A DNA stretch of 64,000 nucleotides from Squalus acanthias (taxonomy: Eukaryota): positions 48,980,001 through 49,044,000 of the forward strand of contig CM059430.1 in the NCBI GenBank assembly GCA_030390025.1. Reading direction: 5' to 3'. Below the pieces are notes generated by a model that made no database searches, was not told the origin of the DNA, and saw only the letters and a program-made list of their open reading frames with translations. Shown here piece by piece: positions 18,685 to 31,431 of the stretch (position 1 is the stretch's first letter; each line of letters opens with the position of its first letter). The position numbers and the translations under genes are program-made.

Positions 18685-19255
18685 CAGTGTCAGCCTTGCC
18701 TCAGTTGTAGCACTTTCACCCCTGAGCCAGAAGGTTGTGGGTTCAAGACCCAATCCAGACACTTGAACACATAATCTCGGCTGAAACTTCAGTGCAGCAC
18801 TGTCAGAGGTACCATCTTTTGAATGAGTTGTTAAACCACGACTGCCTGTTCGGGTGGATGTAAAAGATCCCATGGCACTATTGGAAGAAGAGCAGGGGAG
18901 TTCTCCTGGTGTCCTGATCAACATTTGTACAAATTGACTGCTGCTTTTGTCTACATTACAACAGTGACTACTCTTCAACAGAGGTCATGATGTGGAGATG
19001 CCGGCGTTGGACTGGGGTGGACAAAAATGAGAAGTCGCACAACACCAGGTTATAGTCCAACAGATTTATTTAATTTTACTTAATTTATTTAATTTATTTA
19101 ATTTAATTTAAAATTAAATAAATCTGTTGGACTATAACCTGGTGTTGTGCGACTTCTCATTTTTACTCTTCAACAGTAATTCATTAACTGTGAAGTATTT
19201 TGAGACTTGCTGGTTCATGTAAGGCACTGTATAAATGTAAGTTCCTTCTTTTCTT
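18685..19255 (+). mobile_element. Deu-domain SINE interrupted by a Penelope-derived hairpin
   Basis: tRNA-like head gtgtcagccttgcctcagttgtagcact...gggttcaagacc, Deu core, tail gtaaggcactgtataaatgtaagttccttc. Confidence 0.78.
18982..19164. mobile_element. Penelope-like inverted terminal fragment forming a perfect 56-bp hairpin, 12-bp TSD
   Basis: Arms 19023-19078 and 19109-19164 are exact reverse complements; direct repeat ACTCTTCAACAG at 18970-18981 and 19165-19176; arm ctgttggactataacctggtgttgtg is shared with 31496-31521. Confidence 0.85.
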
Positions 19256-20076: not shown

Positions 20077-23000
20077 TAGCATAGTGGTTATGTTACTGGA
20101 CTAGTAATCCAGAGGCCTGGACTAATGATCTGGAGACGTGAGTTCAAATCCCACCACGGCAGCTGGGGGATTTAAATTCAGTTAATTCATTAAATAAATC
20201 TGGAATAAAAAGCTAGCATCAGTAATGGTGACCATGAAACTACTGGATTGTCGTAAAAACCCATCTGGTTCACTGCTGTCCTTACCCGGTCTGGCCTATA
20301 TGTGACTCCATACCCACAGCAATGTGATTGACTCTTAACTGCCCTCTGAAATGGCCTAGCAAGTCACTCAGTTCTATCGAACGAAAAACAATATTAAGAA
20401 TGAAACCGGATGGACCACCCGGCATCGACCTAGGCACCAGATTCAGACACGACAAAGGCACATCCAACCCAGTCAACCTTGCAATGTCCTCATCTGGGGA
20501 CTTGTTCCAAAATTGGAAGAGCTGTCCTACAGACTAGTCAAGCAACAGCCTGACATAATCATACTCACAGAATCATACCTTTCAGCCAACGTCCCAGATT
20601 CCCCCATCACCATCCCTGGGTATGTCCTGTCCCACCAGCAGGACAGACTCACCAGAGGTGGCGGCAGTGTGGTATACAGTCGGGAGGGAGTGGCCCTGGG
20701 AGTCCTCAACATTGACTCTGGTCCCCATGAAGTCTCATGGCATCAAGTCAAATATGGGCAAGGAAACCTCCTGCTGATTACCACCTACCACCCTGTCTCA
20801 GCTGATGAAACAGTACTCCGCCATGTTGAACACCACTTGGAAGAAGCACTGAGGGTAGCAAGGGCACTGAATGTACTCTGGGTAGGGGACTTCAATGTCC
20901 ATCACCAAGAGTGGCTCGGTAGCACCATTACTGACTGGGCTGGCCGAGTCCTGAAAGACATAGCTGCCAGACTGGGCCTGCGGCACATGGTGAGAGAACC
21001 AATACGAGGGAAAAACCTACTTGACCTCATCCTCACCAATCTACCTGTCGCAGATGCATCTGTCTCTCCATGACAGTATTGGTAGGAGTGTCCACCACAC
21101 AGTACTTGTGGAGACGAAGACCTGTCTTCACACTGAGGACACTCTCCATCGTGTTGTGTGGTACTACCACCATGCTAAATGGGATAGATTCAGAACAGAT
21201 CTAGCAGCTCAAAACTGGGCATGCATGGGCGCTGTGGGCCATCAGCAGCAGCAGAATTGTATTCCACCACAATCTAACCTCATGGTCCGGCATATTCCTC
21301 ACTCTACCATTACCATCAAGCCAGGGGACCAACCCTGGTTCAATAAGGAGTGTAGAAGAGCATGACAGGAGCAGCTCCAGGCGTACCTAAAAATGAGGTG
21401 CCAACCAGGTGAAGCTACAACACATGCATGCTAAACAGTGGAAGCAGCATGCTATAGACCGAGCTAAGCGATCCCACAACCAACGGATCAGATCAAAGCT
21501 CTGCAGTCCTGCCACATTCAGTACGAATCTTGGTGGACAATTAAACAACTAACGGGAGGAGGAGGCTGCATGAACATCCCCATCCTTCAGCCAGAAGTGC
21601 CGGGTGGATGATCTATCTTGGCCTCCTCCTGGGGTCCCCACCATCACAGAAGCCAGTCTTCAGCCAATTTGATTCATTCCACATGATATCAAGAAACGGC
21701 TGAGCCCACTAGATACAGCAAAGGCTATGGGCCCCGACAACATCCCGGCTGTAGTGCTGAAGACTTGTGCTCCAGAACTAGCCACGCTATTCCAGTATAG
21801 CTACAACACTGGCATCTACATGACAAAGTGGAAAATTGCCCAGGTATGTCCTGTCCACAAAAAGCAAGACAAATTCAATCCGGCCAATTAAGGCGGCATC
21901 AGTCTAGTCACAATCATCAGCAAAGTGAAGGATTGTGTCGTCGACAGTGCTATCAAGTGGCATTCACTCACCAGTAACTTGCTCACCGATGCTCAGTTTT
22001 GGGTTCCGCCAGGACCACTCGGCTCCAGACCTCATTATAGCCTTGTCCAAACATGGACAAAAGAGCTGAATTCCAGAGGTGAGGTGAGAGTGACTGCCCT
22101 TGACATCAAGGCAGCATTTAACCGAGATGGCATCAAGGAACCCTAGTAAAATTGAAGTCAATGGGATACAGGGGGAAAATTCTCCACTGGCTGGAGTCAT
22201 ACCTAGCACAAAGGAAGATGGTTGTGGTTGTTGGAGGCCAATCATCTCAGCACCAGGACATCACTGCAGGAGTTCCTCAGGTCAGTGTCCTAGGCCCAAC
22301 CATCTTCAGCTGCTTCTTCATGACCTTCCCTCTATCATGAGGTCAGAAGTGGGGATGTTCCCTGATGATTGCACAATGTTCAATTCCGTTCACAACTCCT
22401 CAGATGATGAAGCAGTCCGTGCCCACATGCAGCAAGACCTGGACAACATTCAGGCTTGGGCTGATAAGTGGCAGGTAACATTCACACCACACAACTGCCA
22501 GGCACTGACCATCTCCTCTTAACATTCAATTGCAATACCATCATCGAATCGCCCACCATCAACATCCTGGGGGTCACCATTGACCAGAAACTTAACTGGA
22601 CCAGCCACATAAATACTGTGGCTACAAGAGCAGGTCAGAGACTGGGTATTCTGTGGCAAGTGACTCACCTCCTGACTCCCCAAAGCCTTTCCACCACCTA
22701 CAAAGCACAAACCAGGAGTGTGATGGAATACTCTCCACTTGCCTGGATGAGTGCAGCTCCAACAACAATCAAGAAGCTTGACACCATCCAGGACAAAGCA
22801 GCCCACTTGACTGCCACTCTATCCACCACCTTAAACATTCACTCCCTCCACCACAAGCACACCGTGTCTGCAGTGTGTACCATCTACATGATACGCTGCA
22901 GCAACTTGCCAATGCTTCTTCAACAGCACCTCCCAACCCGCGACTTCTACCACCACTTGGAAATATATCGCTATTCCTTCATTGTCACTGGGTCAAAATC

Positions 23001-23160
23001 CTGGAACTCCCTCCCTAGCAGCACTATGGGAGTACCTTCACCACATGGACTGCAGCAGTTCAAGAAGGTGGCTCACTACCACCTTCTCAAGGGCAACTAG
23101 GGATAGGCAATAAATGCTGGCCATGCCAGCGACGCCCAGATCTCGTAAATTAATTTTTAA
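20077..23160 (+). mobile_element. Near full-length single-ORF APE-RT LINE (CR1 group, Zenon-like) with tRNA-derived 5' head; ORF decayed
   Basis: A box TAGCATAGTGG 20077-20087, B box GTTCAAATCC 20142-20151; EN motifs PDIIILTES, RGGG, GDFNVHH, LDL; RT motifs GPDNIP, LDIKAAF, GVPQ, F(P)DD; 3' end ggcaataaatgctggcc..gccagcgacgccca. Confidence 0.9.
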
Positions 23161-24009
23161 AAAGCCTAAAAATGTATTTTTCAAGTAAAAAGATCATTGC
23201 TCGTATTTCTGTTTCCTTATTATTCTGTTGCATTTTAAAAATAAATATTAAATAGCACTAATATGCTGTCAAAGTGGAGTCCTATTTTATGCATTGTTAG
23301 GACAGACAAAAAAGTTGCAGATGGATCTGTTAGAGGGCTGAGTACGTAACTGCAAAGAACTCACAACATGAGTTGACTGCACAGTGGGTACCACTCACGA
23401 GTCAGAGGTTTTATAAGAATTGGGGTGCTGCAGTACATAATGGTCACATAGTGTGAAAGTGGAAGTCTCTTCTTGTCTTTAGTTTGTACCTGGCGATACC
23501 TGAATTTGAATAGACTGAGATCTACATTGAATAAAATGATTCTTTTACAGTGAAAAAATCCTGTTATTGCGATTCACCCACAATCATAATTCATTTCTTT
23601 AACTTATAATACTTGTTACTTTGATGAGCAGAAACTAGACACTTCAATGAGTCCATTCATTCATGCAATGTTTTCATAAGTGAGGTTGCACTTCATTGGA
23701 ACGTGAAATATTTACATAGAAAAATATTTTCTTTACAATATTCAGGCAGATTAATATTTCTCAAAACTGGTAATATTTCTAAATCAGCAGCATAGTTTGT
23801 TATTGATATGGAAGAGAATGTGATACAAAGGAGAGACTTTGCTGTTTGCTGACTATTCACCTGATAGTATCTTGGTTGTATTTTGTCTTTCATACTATAG
23901 ATTATTTTCCGTACTTTATATGGCGTGTGTTGGCCTGGTATGACCACCGATGAAACTGAGAGCCGGGGACATGGGAACTCTCGGCTTTGGGAATCTCTGC
24001 CCTCTCTTA

Positions 24010-25278
24010 GGCTGCTGTGTGCCTGGCCTAATTTCTAGCTCTGCCGTCGCACACCTCCATGTTTGAATCCCTCCAATCAGGTTTCCGTCCCTGCCACAGT
24101 ACCACAAACGACATCCTATGCAACTGTGACCATGGTAACCTATCCCTCCTCATCCTTCTCGACCCGTCTGCAGCCTTTGACATGGTTGACCACACCATCC
24201 TCCTCCAAAGCCTCTCCACCGTCATCAAGCTGCATGGGACTGCACTCTCCTGGTTCCATTGCTATCTATCCAGTCGTAGCCAGAGAATTATCTGCAATGG
24301 CTTTTCTTCCCGCTCCCGCACCGTTACCTCTGAAGTCCCCCAAGGATCTATCCTTGGCCTCCTTCTATTTCACATCTACCTGCTGCCCCTCAGCGACATT
24401 ATCCGAAAACATACCATCAGGTTCCACATGTACGCTGGCAACATCCAGCTCTACCTCACCACCGACCTCTCTCAACCATGCCATTGTCCCTGATTTTTCA
24501 CACTGCTTGTCCGACATCCAGTACAGGATGAGCAGAAAATTCCTCCAAGTAAATATTGGGAAGACCGAAGCCATTGTCTTTGGTCCCCACCACGAACTCT
24601 GTTCCCGAGCCACGGACTCCATTCCTCGCAACTGTCTGAGGCTGAACCAGACCGTTCGCAACCTTGGTGTCGTGTTTGACCATGATGAGCTTCCGACCAC
24701 ATATCCGCGCCATCACCAAGACCGCCTACTTCCACCTTCGTAATATCGCTCATCTCCACCCCTGCCTCAGCTCATCTGCTGCTGAAACCCTCATCCATGC
24801 TTTAGTTACCACTAGACTTGACAATTCCAACTCTCCTGGCTGGCCTCGCACCTTCCATAGACTTGAGCTCATCAAAAACTCTGTTGTCCATATACTAGCT
24901 TGCACCAAATCCCATTCACCCATTACCCCTGTGCTCACTGACCTACATTGGCTCCCGTTCTGACACCTCGATTTAAAAATTCTCATCCTTGTTTTCAAAT
25001 CTCTCCATGGCCTTGTCCCTCACTATTTCTGTAACTTACAACTCTCTGAGATCGCTGCGCTTCTCCAATTCTGGCCTCTTGCACATTCCCAATTTGAATG
25101 GCTCCTCCATTGCCTTCAGCTACTTTAAGACGCTCCTTAAAACATACCTCTTGGTCACCTGTCCTACTATCTCCTTATATGGCTCGGCATCAAATGTTTG
25201 TTTGATAATGCTCCTGTGAAGTGCCTTCGGACATTTTACTATGTTAAAGGTACTATATAAATGCAAGTTGTTGTTGTT
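24010..25278 (+). mobile_element. L2 LINE, 3' half (RT), degenerate
   Basis: FESLQSGFRPCHST, LLDPSAAFDMVDH, VPQGSILG, AETLIHALVTTRLD, ITPVLTDLHWLP; tail ggtactatataaatgcaagttgttgttg. Confidence 0.92.
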
Positions 25279-28912: not shown

Positions 28913-30358
28913 TTTTTTAATTAGTTCATGGGATCTGGGCGTCGCTGGCAAGGCCAGTATTTATTGCCCATCTCTAATTGCCCTTGAGAAGGTGGTGGTG
29001 AGCCGCCGCCTTCAACCGCTGCAGTCCATGTGGTGGGAGGTACTCTCACAGTGCTGTTAGGGAGGGAGTTCCAGGATTTTGACCCAGCGACGATGAAGGA
29101 ACGGCGATATACTTCCAAGTCAGGATGGTGTATGACTTGGAGGTGGTGGTGTTTCCCATGCGCCTGCTGCCCTTGTCCTTCTAGGTGGTAGAGGTCGCAG
29201 GTTGGGAGGTACTGTTGAAGAAGCCTTGGCGAGTTGCTGCAGTGCATCTTGTAGATGGTATACACTGCAGCCACGGTAAGCCGGTGGTGGAGGGAGTGAA
29301 TGTTTAAGGTGGTGGATGGGGTGCCAATCAAGCTGGTTGCTTTGTCCTGGATGGTGTCGAGCTTCTTGAGTGTTGTTGGAGCTGCACTCATCCAGGCAAG
29401 TGGAGAGTATTTCATCACACTCCTTACTTGTGCCTGGATGGTGGAAAGACTTTGGGGAGTCAAGAAGTGAGACACTCGCCGTAGAATACCTAGCCTCTGA
29501 ACTGCTCTTGTTGCCACAGTATTTATGTGGCTGGTCAATGGTGACCCCCCCCCCCCCCCCCCCAGGATGTTGATGGTGGAGGATCCAGCGATGGTAATGC
29601 CGTTGAATGTCAAGGGGTGGTGGTTAGACTCTCGCTTGTTGGAGATAGTCATTGCCTGGCACTTGTGTGACACGAATGTTACCTGCCACTTATCAGCCCA
29701 AGCCTGAATGTCGTCCAGGTCTTGTTGCATGCGGGCATGGACTGCTTCATTATCTGAGGAGTTGCGAATGGCACTGAACACTGTGCAGTCATCAGCGAAC
29801 ATCCCCATTTTTGACCTTGTGATGGAGGGAAGGTCATGAATGAAGCAGCTGAAGCTGGTTGGGACTAGGACACTGCCCTGAGGAACTCCTGCAGCGATGT
29901 CCTGGGGCTGTGATGATTAACCACCACAACCATCTTCCTTTGTGCTAGGTATGGCCCCAGCCAGTGGAGAGTTTGCCCCCAATTCCCATTGACTTCAGTT
30001 TTACTAGGGCTCCTTGATGCCACACTCTGTCAAATGCTGCCTTGATGTCTGGGGCAGTCACTCTCACCTCACCTCTGGAATTCAGTTCCTTCATCCATGT
30101 TTGGACCAAGGTTGTAATGAGGTCTGGAGCCGAGTGGTCCTGGCGGAACCCAAACTGGGCATCAGTGAGCAGGTTATTAGTGAGTAAGTGCCGCTTGATA
30201 GCGCTGTCGACAGCACCTTCCATCACTTTGCTGATGATTGAGAGTAGACTGATGGGGTGATAATTGGCCGGATTGGATTTGTCCTGCTTTTTGTGGACAG
30301 GACATGGCAGTTTTCCACATTGTCGAATAGATGCCAGTGTTGTAGCTGTACTGGAACA
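28913..30358 (-). mobile_element. 5'-truncated copy of the tRNA-headed Zenon-like LINE family, nested in CR1
   Basis: ORFs 28921-29808 (FADDCTVF) and 29945-30226 (DIKAAFDRVWHQG) closely match the 20077 and 44257 copies; A-rich tail at 28912-28922. Confidence 0.92.
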
Positions 30359-31431
30359 GCTATTTGGTTAGTATTAAGGAACAATATTATGCTTACTGGG
30401 TGTATACTATTGGCCACCAAATAGTGGGAAGGAGATAGAGGAGCAATTACAGAAAGATGCAAGAACTACAGAGTAGTGATAATGGGGGATTTTAATTATC
30501 CTAATATAGACTGGGATAGTAACTGTATAAAGGGCAAAGAAGGGGAGGAATTCCTGAAATGTGTACAAGACAATCAGTGTGTTTCCAGCTCAACGAGGAA
30601 GGAAGCAGTGCTGGATCTCGTTCTGGGGAATGAAGTGGAGCATGTTTTAGTGGGAGAGCATTTGGGGAACAGTGATCATAATACCATCAAAGATAAGGAG
30701 ACCAAAACTGTAAACAGTACTCCAGGCAATAATCTGGGACAAAATTAATTGACATTTAGAAAAGTATGGGCTAAAAAATGAAAGTCAGCACGGATTTGTT
30801 AAAGGCAAATCGTGTTTGACTAACTTGATCGAGTTCTTTAAAGTAATGGAGTGGGTTGATGAGGATCGTGTGGTTGATGTGTTTCTGGACTTTCAAAAGG
30901 TGTTTGACAACGTACCAGATAATAGACTTGTTAGCAAAATTAAAGCCCGTGGGATTAAAGGGACAGTGGCAGCATGGATACAAAATTGGCTTGGGGACAG
31001 AAAGCAGAGAGTAGTGGTGAACGGTTGTTTTTCAGATGGAGTGAGATATACAGTGGTGTTCCCCAGGGGTTGGTATTGGGACCACTGCACTTTTTGAGAT
31101 ATATTAATGACCTGGACTTGGGTATACAGGGCATAATTTCAAAGTTTGCAAATGATATGAAACTCGATAAATGATATGAAACTCGATAATGTAGTAAACA
31201 ATGAGGAGGATTGTAACAACTTCAGGAGGACATGGACAGACTAGTGAAATGGGAAAACACATGACAGATGAAATTTAACGCAGAGCAGTGTGAAGTGATA
31301 CCTTTTGGTAGGAAGAATGAGGAGAGGCAATATAAACTAAATGGTACAAGCTTAAAGGGGGTGCAGGAACAGAGTGACCTTGGGGTGTATGTACACAAAT
31401 CTTTGAAGGTGGCAGGACAAGTTGAGAAGGA

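What the first reader, a model, noticed from the sequence alone, without database searches (positions are those of the whole stretch)
20077..23160. tRNA-Thr-headed, ORF1-less LINE whose sense strand avoids Pol III terminators: candidate Pol III-transcribed autonomous retrotransposon
Seen: the element starts with a Pol III type-2 promoter layout (A box TAGCATAGTGG, B box GTTCAAATCC) and an anticodon arm CTGGA-CTAGTAA-TCCAG (20096-20112) with the tRNA-Thr(AGT) loop, plus a partial repeat of that arm. A ~400-nt leader then runs into a single APE-RT frame with no ORF1. The leader is part of the family because the 44257 copy shares it. By eye the 3-kb sense strand has one internal TTTT (21997-22000), and it is a copy-specific extra T (the other two copies read cagtttggg). 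The 44257 copy has one T5 (45624) and the 1.4-kb 28913 copy has none; two copies end in a T4-5 run before the A tail. Established: T4+ terminates vertebrate Pol III, tRNA heads define SINEs, and LINEs normally use Pol II. Inference: the family may be an autonomous SINE-LINE hybrid transcribed by Pol III. I cannot tell whether it has been described.
Basis: partly seen in the sequence, partly recalled or inferred. Interest (0 to 1): 0.82.

Follow-up and report, generated by a model that had tools for sequence, protein, structure and literature searches.

The report
Shark Zenon LINE with tRNA head
This is a decayed copy of a published shark-and-ray jumping gene (Zenon) whose full-length copies begin with the tRNA-like promoter boxes normally seen on short non-coding repeats and whose single protein frame has no AUG start, so it is likely copied by RNA polymerase III and would then be translated without a cap, which no experiment has yet tested.

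Summary
Full-length copies across the genome start about 8 nt before 20077. The family is the elasmobranch Zenon LINE (CR1 group) of Stuart et al. 2026 (PMC13343379). Lack of ORF1 and the A tail are known Zenon traits, so they are not new. The tRNA-like head stands in that paper's consensus rows for five sharks and rays, but 'tRNA' has 0 hits in its text and the readable part of its supplement. Added here: the 973-codon frame has no in-frame ATG before the endonuclease. The frame and its Arg-rich N-terminal extension evolved under purifying selection. The leader carries one compensatory base pair. It ends in an anticodon-like hairpin that could pair with the first conserved codon, like a dicistrovirus IRES. 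The abundant short forms look like repeated internal deletions of the LINE. No internal T4 is shared among copies, but the statistic is modest (codon nulls P 0.05-0.12), and CR1 is partly depleted too. Pol III transcription is inferred, about 55% likely. This scan noted the same family at least eight times before on other pieces of this genome.

The parts
20077..20152 (+). tRNA-like head: A box 20077-20087, anticodon-like arm 20096-20112, second arm 20117-20133, B box 20142-20151; the first ~8 nt of the family's 5' end are missing in this copy
   Evidence: the same head opens the seven published elasmobranch Zenon rows (first 400 letters, by eye)
20153..20382 (+). Non-coding leader body, shared with the short (SINE-like) forms; this copy has a ~20-nt deletion
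20264..20312 (+). Predicted long-range helix (20264-20268 with 20308-20312) holding a compensatory pair between subfamilies; one base of the 3' arm is mutated in this copy
   Evidence: T-A in 78 young copies, A-T in 33 old copies; pair counts and folds
20346..20371 (+). Predicted hairpin with a 7-nt anticodon-like loop; its middle triplet (20358-20360) is complementary to an in-frame GCT codon about 25 nt downstream, which this copy has lost
   Evidence: stem pairs mostly 70-100% kept, one pair is A.C in the young subfamily; the loop-codon pairs show no compensatory change, so they are unproven
20383..23100 (+). Single APE endonuclease + reverse transcriptase frame with an Arg-rich N-terminal extension, broken in this copy; 973 codons stop-to-stop at family level, first in-frame ATG 244 codons after the N-I-W motif
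23101..23163 (+). Short 3' UTR with a stable stem-loop and A-rich tail, kept by the short forms
   Evidence: (z -2.4 to -3.6 in three copies)
44257..47290 (+). Second copy, 5'-truncated inside the leader
28913..30360 (-). Third copy, 3' 1.4 kb only

Best explanation
This is the elasmobranch Zenon LINE, an autonomous one-gene retrotransposon that carries a tRNA-like head with A and B boxes as its own 5' end, is likely transcribed from that head by RNA polymerase III as one 3.3-kb RNA, and is predicted to be translated without a cap from a non-AUG start set by the structured leader. The protein would then reverse-transcribe its own RNA from the 3' stem-loop. Copies that lose the middle but keep head, leader and tail would spread as the SINE-like short forms. 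Shown: head fixed to the frame, purifying selection, no in-frame ATG, no shared internal T4, many deletion junctions. Inferred: the polymerase, the lack of a cap, the translation start.
For: Head integral: of 29 copies picked by the endonuclease protein, 8 start within the first 4 nt and the other 21 are truncated at scattered points from 35 to 413; of 29 picked by the leader/ORF junction, 12 start at position 1. An older subfamily also has head plus frame. All 7 elasmobranch Zenon rows (5 species) in PMC13343379 Table S2 open with the head. The A box is kept in all five species and the B box is canonical in three, while the sequence between the boxes has diverged. The 3 hagfish and coelacanth rows lack the head and show T4+ runs in their first 400 letters (by eye). 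Autonomy: old versus young column majorities give 34 synonymous and 22 non-synonymous differences in 536 codons, pN/pS 0.20, P 3e-9. Non-AUG start: no in-frame ATG between the upstream stop and codon 244 after N-I-W. The N-terminal extension is synonymous-biased in the main frame (9 versus 8, P 0.028) but not in the frame of the nearby ATG (1 versus 16). T runs: 0 T4+ and 7 T3 in 3,286 majority columns against 4.0 and 16.2 expected, and 0 T4+ in old, middle and young groups. Where T would make a run of 3 or more, T is chosen 5 of 42 times against 181 of 481 otherwise, P 6e-4. CR1 in the same genome has 88 T4+ in 55,485 nt and at least two T5+ in 25 of 25 copies, against 34 in 114,290 nt here. 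Precedent for IRES-like translation of uncapped LINE RNA: R2 and L1Tc (PMC6765202, passages).
Against: There is no direct transcription evidence. T4 absence alone is borderline: P 0.12 with the family's own codon usage and 0.046 with Phe set like other C/T-ending codons. Eight single-copy codon shuffles gave P 0.07-0.70. The three subfamilies differ by only about 4%, so they count nearly as one sample. CR1 shows the same run avoidance more weakly (16 of 34 versus 88 of 133, P 0.048), A runs show the same direction, and C4 and G4 runs are also below dinucleotide expectation. The leader folds no better than shuffles (z -0.24; -1.0, -2.0, 0.0) and matches no Rfam IRES or ribozyme. The loop-codon pairing has no compensatory change and was noticed after the fact. 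Most copies have no terminal T run (9 of 37 do), and an AATAAA lies near the tail. SINE-type Pol III transcripts are 100-700 nt (PMC10886601, passages), and 3.3 kb is far longer. One stop appears in the old-group majority of the N-terminal extension, probably CpG decay.
Confidence: 0.55

Rival explanations
1. The LINE is a Pol II transcript. The head came from a SINE and is kept for another reason, such as TFIIIC binding or repeated exchange with Pol III SINEs, while a Pol II promoter lies in or near the leader.
For: Non-LTR retrotransposons are described as Pol II-transcribed (PMC10886601). T4 statistics are borderline. An AATAAA lies near the tail and there is no built-in terminator. Headless Zenons are also ORF1-less.
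Against: A and B boxes are kept across five species while the sequence between them diverges (by eye). The 5' end piles up 8 nt before the A box, as in SINE heads. A capped RNA would meet only out-of-frame or stop-followed ATGs before the endonuclease.
Confidence: 0.27
2. The RNA is cut out of read-through host transcripts by a self-cleaving or RNase P-type step at the tRNA-like head, as ribozymes do for R2 and L1Tc, and is then translated without a cap.
For: The 5' end is sharp, there is no AUG, and R2 and L1Tc work this way.
Against: No Rfam ribozyme match. By inspection the 5' and 3' ends of the head cannot form an acceptor stem, so it is a poor RNase P substrate. It is the promoter boxes that are kept.
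Confidence: 0.13
3. The long form is not a unit: a headless LINE inserted next to or into SINE copies, by chance or by site preference.
For: Only one of the three window copies has the head. Clear target-site duplications were found around only 2 long copies.
Against: Truncation points run continuously through leader and head. Truncated copies keep the tail without any SINE 5' part. Duplications of 19 and 18 nt enclose whole head-to-tail copies (L065, L071). Five species share the arrangement.
Confidence: 0.03

Closest known systems
Elasmobranch Zenon LINEs (SquAca_Zenon-1/-2/-3, CarCar, RhiTyp, ScyCan, HypSab rows of Stuart et al. 2026, PMC13343379; abstract, sections 13 and 43, passages, and the first 400 letters of supplement rows seen)
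   Same: Same family. By eye the first 400 letters of the SquAca_Zenon-1 row match the young copies almost letter for letter, and its 3,314 characters fit the 3,316 core columns. No ORF1, A tail.
   Different: The paper does not mention the head, Pol III, the missing AUG or the short forms as far as searched ('tRNA': 0 hits in text and readable supplement).
Lepidopteran Zenon and its internal-deletion partner Persaeus (PMC6740152; parts 2 and 3 of 5 read)
   Same: A 3.1-3.7 kb Zenon with abundant short forms made by repeated internal deletion.
   Different: Persaeus has no tRNA, 5S or 7SL homology and no Pol III promoter; here both long and short forms carry A and B boxes.
tRNA-derived SINEs (SINE2) with LINE-derived tails, including shark HE1 and SacSINE1 (PMC3747384 passages; PMC5499810 parts 1-2 of 6)
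   Same: tRNA-like head, conserved body, tail shared with a LINE.
   Different: Here head and body are also the LINE's own 5' end. The published partners of HE1 and SacSINE1 are HER1 and L2-2_CM/CR1-4_DR-like, not Zenon. I did not see their sequences.
RTE-1_DAn and relatives (one sentence in Kojima 2018, PMC5786205; parts 2-3 of 5 read)
   Same: A LINE reported to contain a tRNA-like sequence.
   Different: RTE clade; the sentence gives no position, promoter role or polymerase.
R2 and L1Tc with HDV-like ribozyme/IRES (PMC6765202, passages) and the dicistrovirus IGR IRES domain PKI (PMC3517527, passages)
   Same: Uncapped RNA translated without an AUG; an anticodon-like stem-loop joined by a variable linker to a codon-like element sets the frame.
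   Different: No Rfam match to either; the pseudoknot here is only predicted.

Membership tests
Zenon (CR1 group) | No ORF1; single APE-RT frame | tested here: met
   one 973-codon frame after a 330-nt leader with stops
Zenon (CR1 group) | Poly-A tail (unique among CR1-group elements per PMC13343379) | tested here: met
   tails listed
Zenon (CR1 group) | Sequence identity to published elasmobranch Zenon consensus | tested here: met
   by eye, first 400 letters only
Zenon (CR1 group) | RT groups with named Zenon references | tested here: inconclusive
   P0001 lies outside the branch holding this genome's CR1, among unnamed relatives; no labelled Zenon protein was available
tRNA-derived SINE (SINE2) | tRNA-like head with A and B boxes | tested here: met
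   column counts
tRNA-derived SINE (SINE2) | Short and non-coding | tested here: not met
   the long form codes; only the 360-530 nt short forms meet it
tRNA-derived SINE (SINE2) | Transcribed by RNA polymerase III | not testable with these tools
   needs 5'-end chemistry, inhibitor tests or ChIP
tRNA-Thr(AGT) as parent of the head | Clear similarity to a tRNA-Thr(AGT) gene of the same genome | tested here: inconclusive
   gene L317 has the same 7-nt loop, but stems and acceptor differ by inspection; the loop varies in ray and whale shark rows
Short internally deleted element (Persaeus type), for the short forms | 5' and 3' ends of the partner LINE joined by internal deletion | tested here: met
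   at least 10 different junctions among 16 short copies
Short internally deleted element (Persaeus type), for the short forms | No Pol III promoter | tested here: not met
   A and B boxes present
Dicistrovirus IGR IRES | Anticodon-codon mimic pseudoknot at a non-AUG start | tested here: inconclusive
   geometry fits and pairs are possible in most copies, but there is no covariation in the loop-codon pairs
Dicistrovirus IGR IRES | Match to the Rfam model of the whole IRES | tested here: not met
   no IRES family up to E 10
HDV-like ribozyme-headed LINE | Ribozyme fold at the 5' end | tested here: not met
   no Rfam ribozyme match

The most novel reading that the evidence does not exclude
[quoted passage not shown] It has kept this design since the common ancestor of sharks and rays while shedding SINEs by internal deletion, which reverses the usual story of how SINEs arise.
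Probability: 0.25. Interest if true: 0.9.

Novelty: new variant of a known kind. Interest (0 to 1): 0.62.

Why it matters
Textbook division: LINEs code and use Pol II, SINEs do not code and use Pol III. A natural, long-lived, high-copy coding element made by Pol III would break that division. It would give a vertebrate-genome example of a long Pol III messenger and possibly of a virus-like IRES. It also offers a one-step route to new SINEs: delete the middle of a LINE that already has the promoter. Kroutter et al. (PMC2666806, abstract seen) found that Pol III transcripts retrotranspose without ORF1p, which fits an ORF1-less element. Every step can be tested with standard reporter and 5'-end assays.

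Tried and rejected
Expression: no RNA holder listed on record; 17 holders were only guessed to be RNA, and all 6 runs laid were contigs. They cannot show start, strand or level and are no evidence either way; two contigs from two other organisms bridge leader and frame. Target-site duplications: a lax search found 11 of 32 against 8 of 32 in the control, so only L065, L071 and perhaps L021 count. Distant relatives with a head: none among 80 metagenome loci; no leader match, and 4 low-score ARAGORN hits all lie inside coding matches. In 60 of the 61 ORFs of at least 400 aa there are 5 or more T4+ runs, but most are T-rich, so they are a poor control. A 19-nt leader motif found 0 matches in viral and in prokaryotic contigs. 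MetaSINE as the body: no likeness by eye in part 1 of 4 of the supplement. Rfam: nothing for head or leader or for the L156 leader. My D-arm pair list was mis-registered and gives no result. Five of the six double-change helices were set aside as likely chance. The Rfam tRNA scan was not followed up. Literature: of 9 searches, none listed a paper describing a Pol III-transcribed autonomous LINE.

Full report
Observation. This copy is decayed: about 8% from the column majority, with its frame in four pieces. Pfam finds the endonuclease in the first piece and the RT in the 28913 copy. The 44257 copy begins inside the leader, so the window shows the head only once.

Is the head part of the element? 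The genome is 3.7 Gb, and the head query gave 3,722 first-look candidates, which is not a copy number. Of the 29 other best loci, 11 run on into the frame, 1 enters it and then jumps to the 3' part, 15 are short forms and 2 are interrupted. Two searches that did not use the head gave the reverse test. Of 29 copies picked by the endonuclease protein, 8 start within the first 4 nt and the rest are cut at scattered points up to 413. Of 29 picked by the leader/frame junction, 12 start at position 1. The true 5' end is about 8 nt upstream of the A box. Two copies carry 19- and 18-nt duplications around the whole unit, but such duplications are otherwise no more frequent than in a control. An older subfamily has the same head joined to the frame.

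What family is it? A protein annotated in the shark Heptranchias matches at 86% over a quarter of the query; other relatives are 24-50% identical and unnamed, apart from a few short higher-identity fragments. The tree keeps it apart from this genome's canonical CR1 but has no named references. Stuart et al. [quoted passage not shown] The first 400 letters of their consensus rows settle the identity by eye. All 7 elasmobranch rows, from 5 species, begin with this head and leader, and the 3 hagfish and coelacanth rows do not. The word tRNA has 0 hits in the text and in the readable supplement. So the family, the lack of ORF1 and the A tail are known, and the head is printed but, as far as I could search, not remarked on.

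Autonomy and start of translation. At column-majority level there is one frame of 973 codons. Old versus young subfamilies differ by 34 synonymous and 22 non-synonymous changes in the 536 codons compared, pN/pS 0.20 (the comparison stops where the reference copy shifts frame). No in-frame ATG lies before the endonuclease; the first is 244 codons after the N-I-W motif. A nearby ATG is out of frame and is ATA in older copies. The roughly 40 codons upstream of N-I-W change synonymously in the main frame (9 versus 8, P 0.028) and not in the ATG frame (1 versus 16). By eye the five published rows keep the frame from a GCT codon onward; just upstream there is a stop in the middle and young subfamilies and a one-base shift in the whale shark row. 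Translation therefore most likely starts at or just after that codon without an AUG (inference).

Leader structure. Among 158 distinct copies, two positions 72 nt apart switch together, T-A in 78 young and A-T in 33 old copies, inside a 5-pair helix that extends by 4 more pairs. Five other double changes found by the same scan were set aside as likely chance. The leader ends in a 9-pair hairpin with a 7-nt loop whose middle triplet is complementary to the GCT codon 12 nt past the stem. This is the layout of the PKI domain of dicistrovirus IRESs (PMC3517527). These loop-codon pairs show no compensatory change, the idea was formed after seeing the data, the leader is not unusually stable, and Rfam gives no IRES match. 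It is a lead, not a result.

T runs. In 37 copies (114,290 nt) there are 34 internal T4+ runs against 76 expected from dinucleotide and 163 from mononucleotide shuffles. 18 of 37 copies have none, and only one site recurs, in 4 of 35. Column majorities hold 0 T4+ and 7 T3 against 4.0 and 16.2 expected. Codon-aware nulls give P 0.12 and 0.046 for T4+, and 0.019 and 0.001 for T3+. CR1 copies hold 1.6 T4+ per kb and at least two T5+ each, but CR1 also avoids runs to a lesser degree, and so do other bases. The signal fits Pol III but does not prove it, because the copies descend from nearly one master sequence.

Short forms. Sixteen short copies show at least 10 different junctions, joining roughly the first 300-375 nt (one at 522) to the last 70-145 nt (one about 340). 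They keep head, leader and 3' stem-loop and drop the frame. This parallels Persaeus, derived repeatedly from lepidopteran Zenon, except that Persaeus has no Pol III promoter.

Mechanism and verdict. Most likely, an ancestral Zenon gained a tRNA-derived Pol III promoter before sharks and rays split. It has since been transcribed by Pol III and translated cap-independently, with SINE-like deletion products riding on the same promoter (confidence 0.55). Pol II transcription with a retained head (0.27) and processing from read-through RNA (0.13) remain open; chance adjacency is refuted. This scan noted the family at least eight times before, and no note held the words Zenon, IRES, pseudoknot and non-AUG together. 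New variant of a known kind; interest 0.62.

Noticed in passing
window 2362-3504 (+) and 5155-5907 (-): DDE_Tnp_4 transposase and Myb/SANT-like frames facing each other, the layout of a PIF/Harbinger DNA transposon (family name recalled).
   Followed up: no
window 19001-19188: Near-perfect inverted repeat with an AT-rich centre that scores against plant miRNA models by shape only, all below gathering score; probably a small foldback element.
   Followed up: no
window 156-974: Canonical CR1 RT fragment; 472,982 first-look candidates in the genome; used as the T-run control.
   Followed up: yes
window about 43900-44256 and 47291-47600: The 44257 Zenon copy seems to sit inside another repeat on the minus strand, CR1-like by recall.
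   Followed up: no
window 8277-8516, 24056-24406, 30717-31423, 50140-50380: Further distant RT-like fragments.
   Followed up: no
tails of L070, L112, L113 and leader of old copies such as L243, L261: T/A boundaries in A-rich tracts vary strongly between copies, with up to T10 in place of A, which suggests a post-insertion instability that can fake terminators.
   Followed up: partly
L156 389-482: A headless relative from a metagenome has a twice-repeated 5' motif that by eye resembles a stretch in the hagfish Zenon-2 row; no Rfam match. It may be the 5' signal of headless Zenons.
   Followed up: partly
L316 about 1500-1535: A still older head variant with a canonical B box and tRNA-like spacing.
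   Followed up: no
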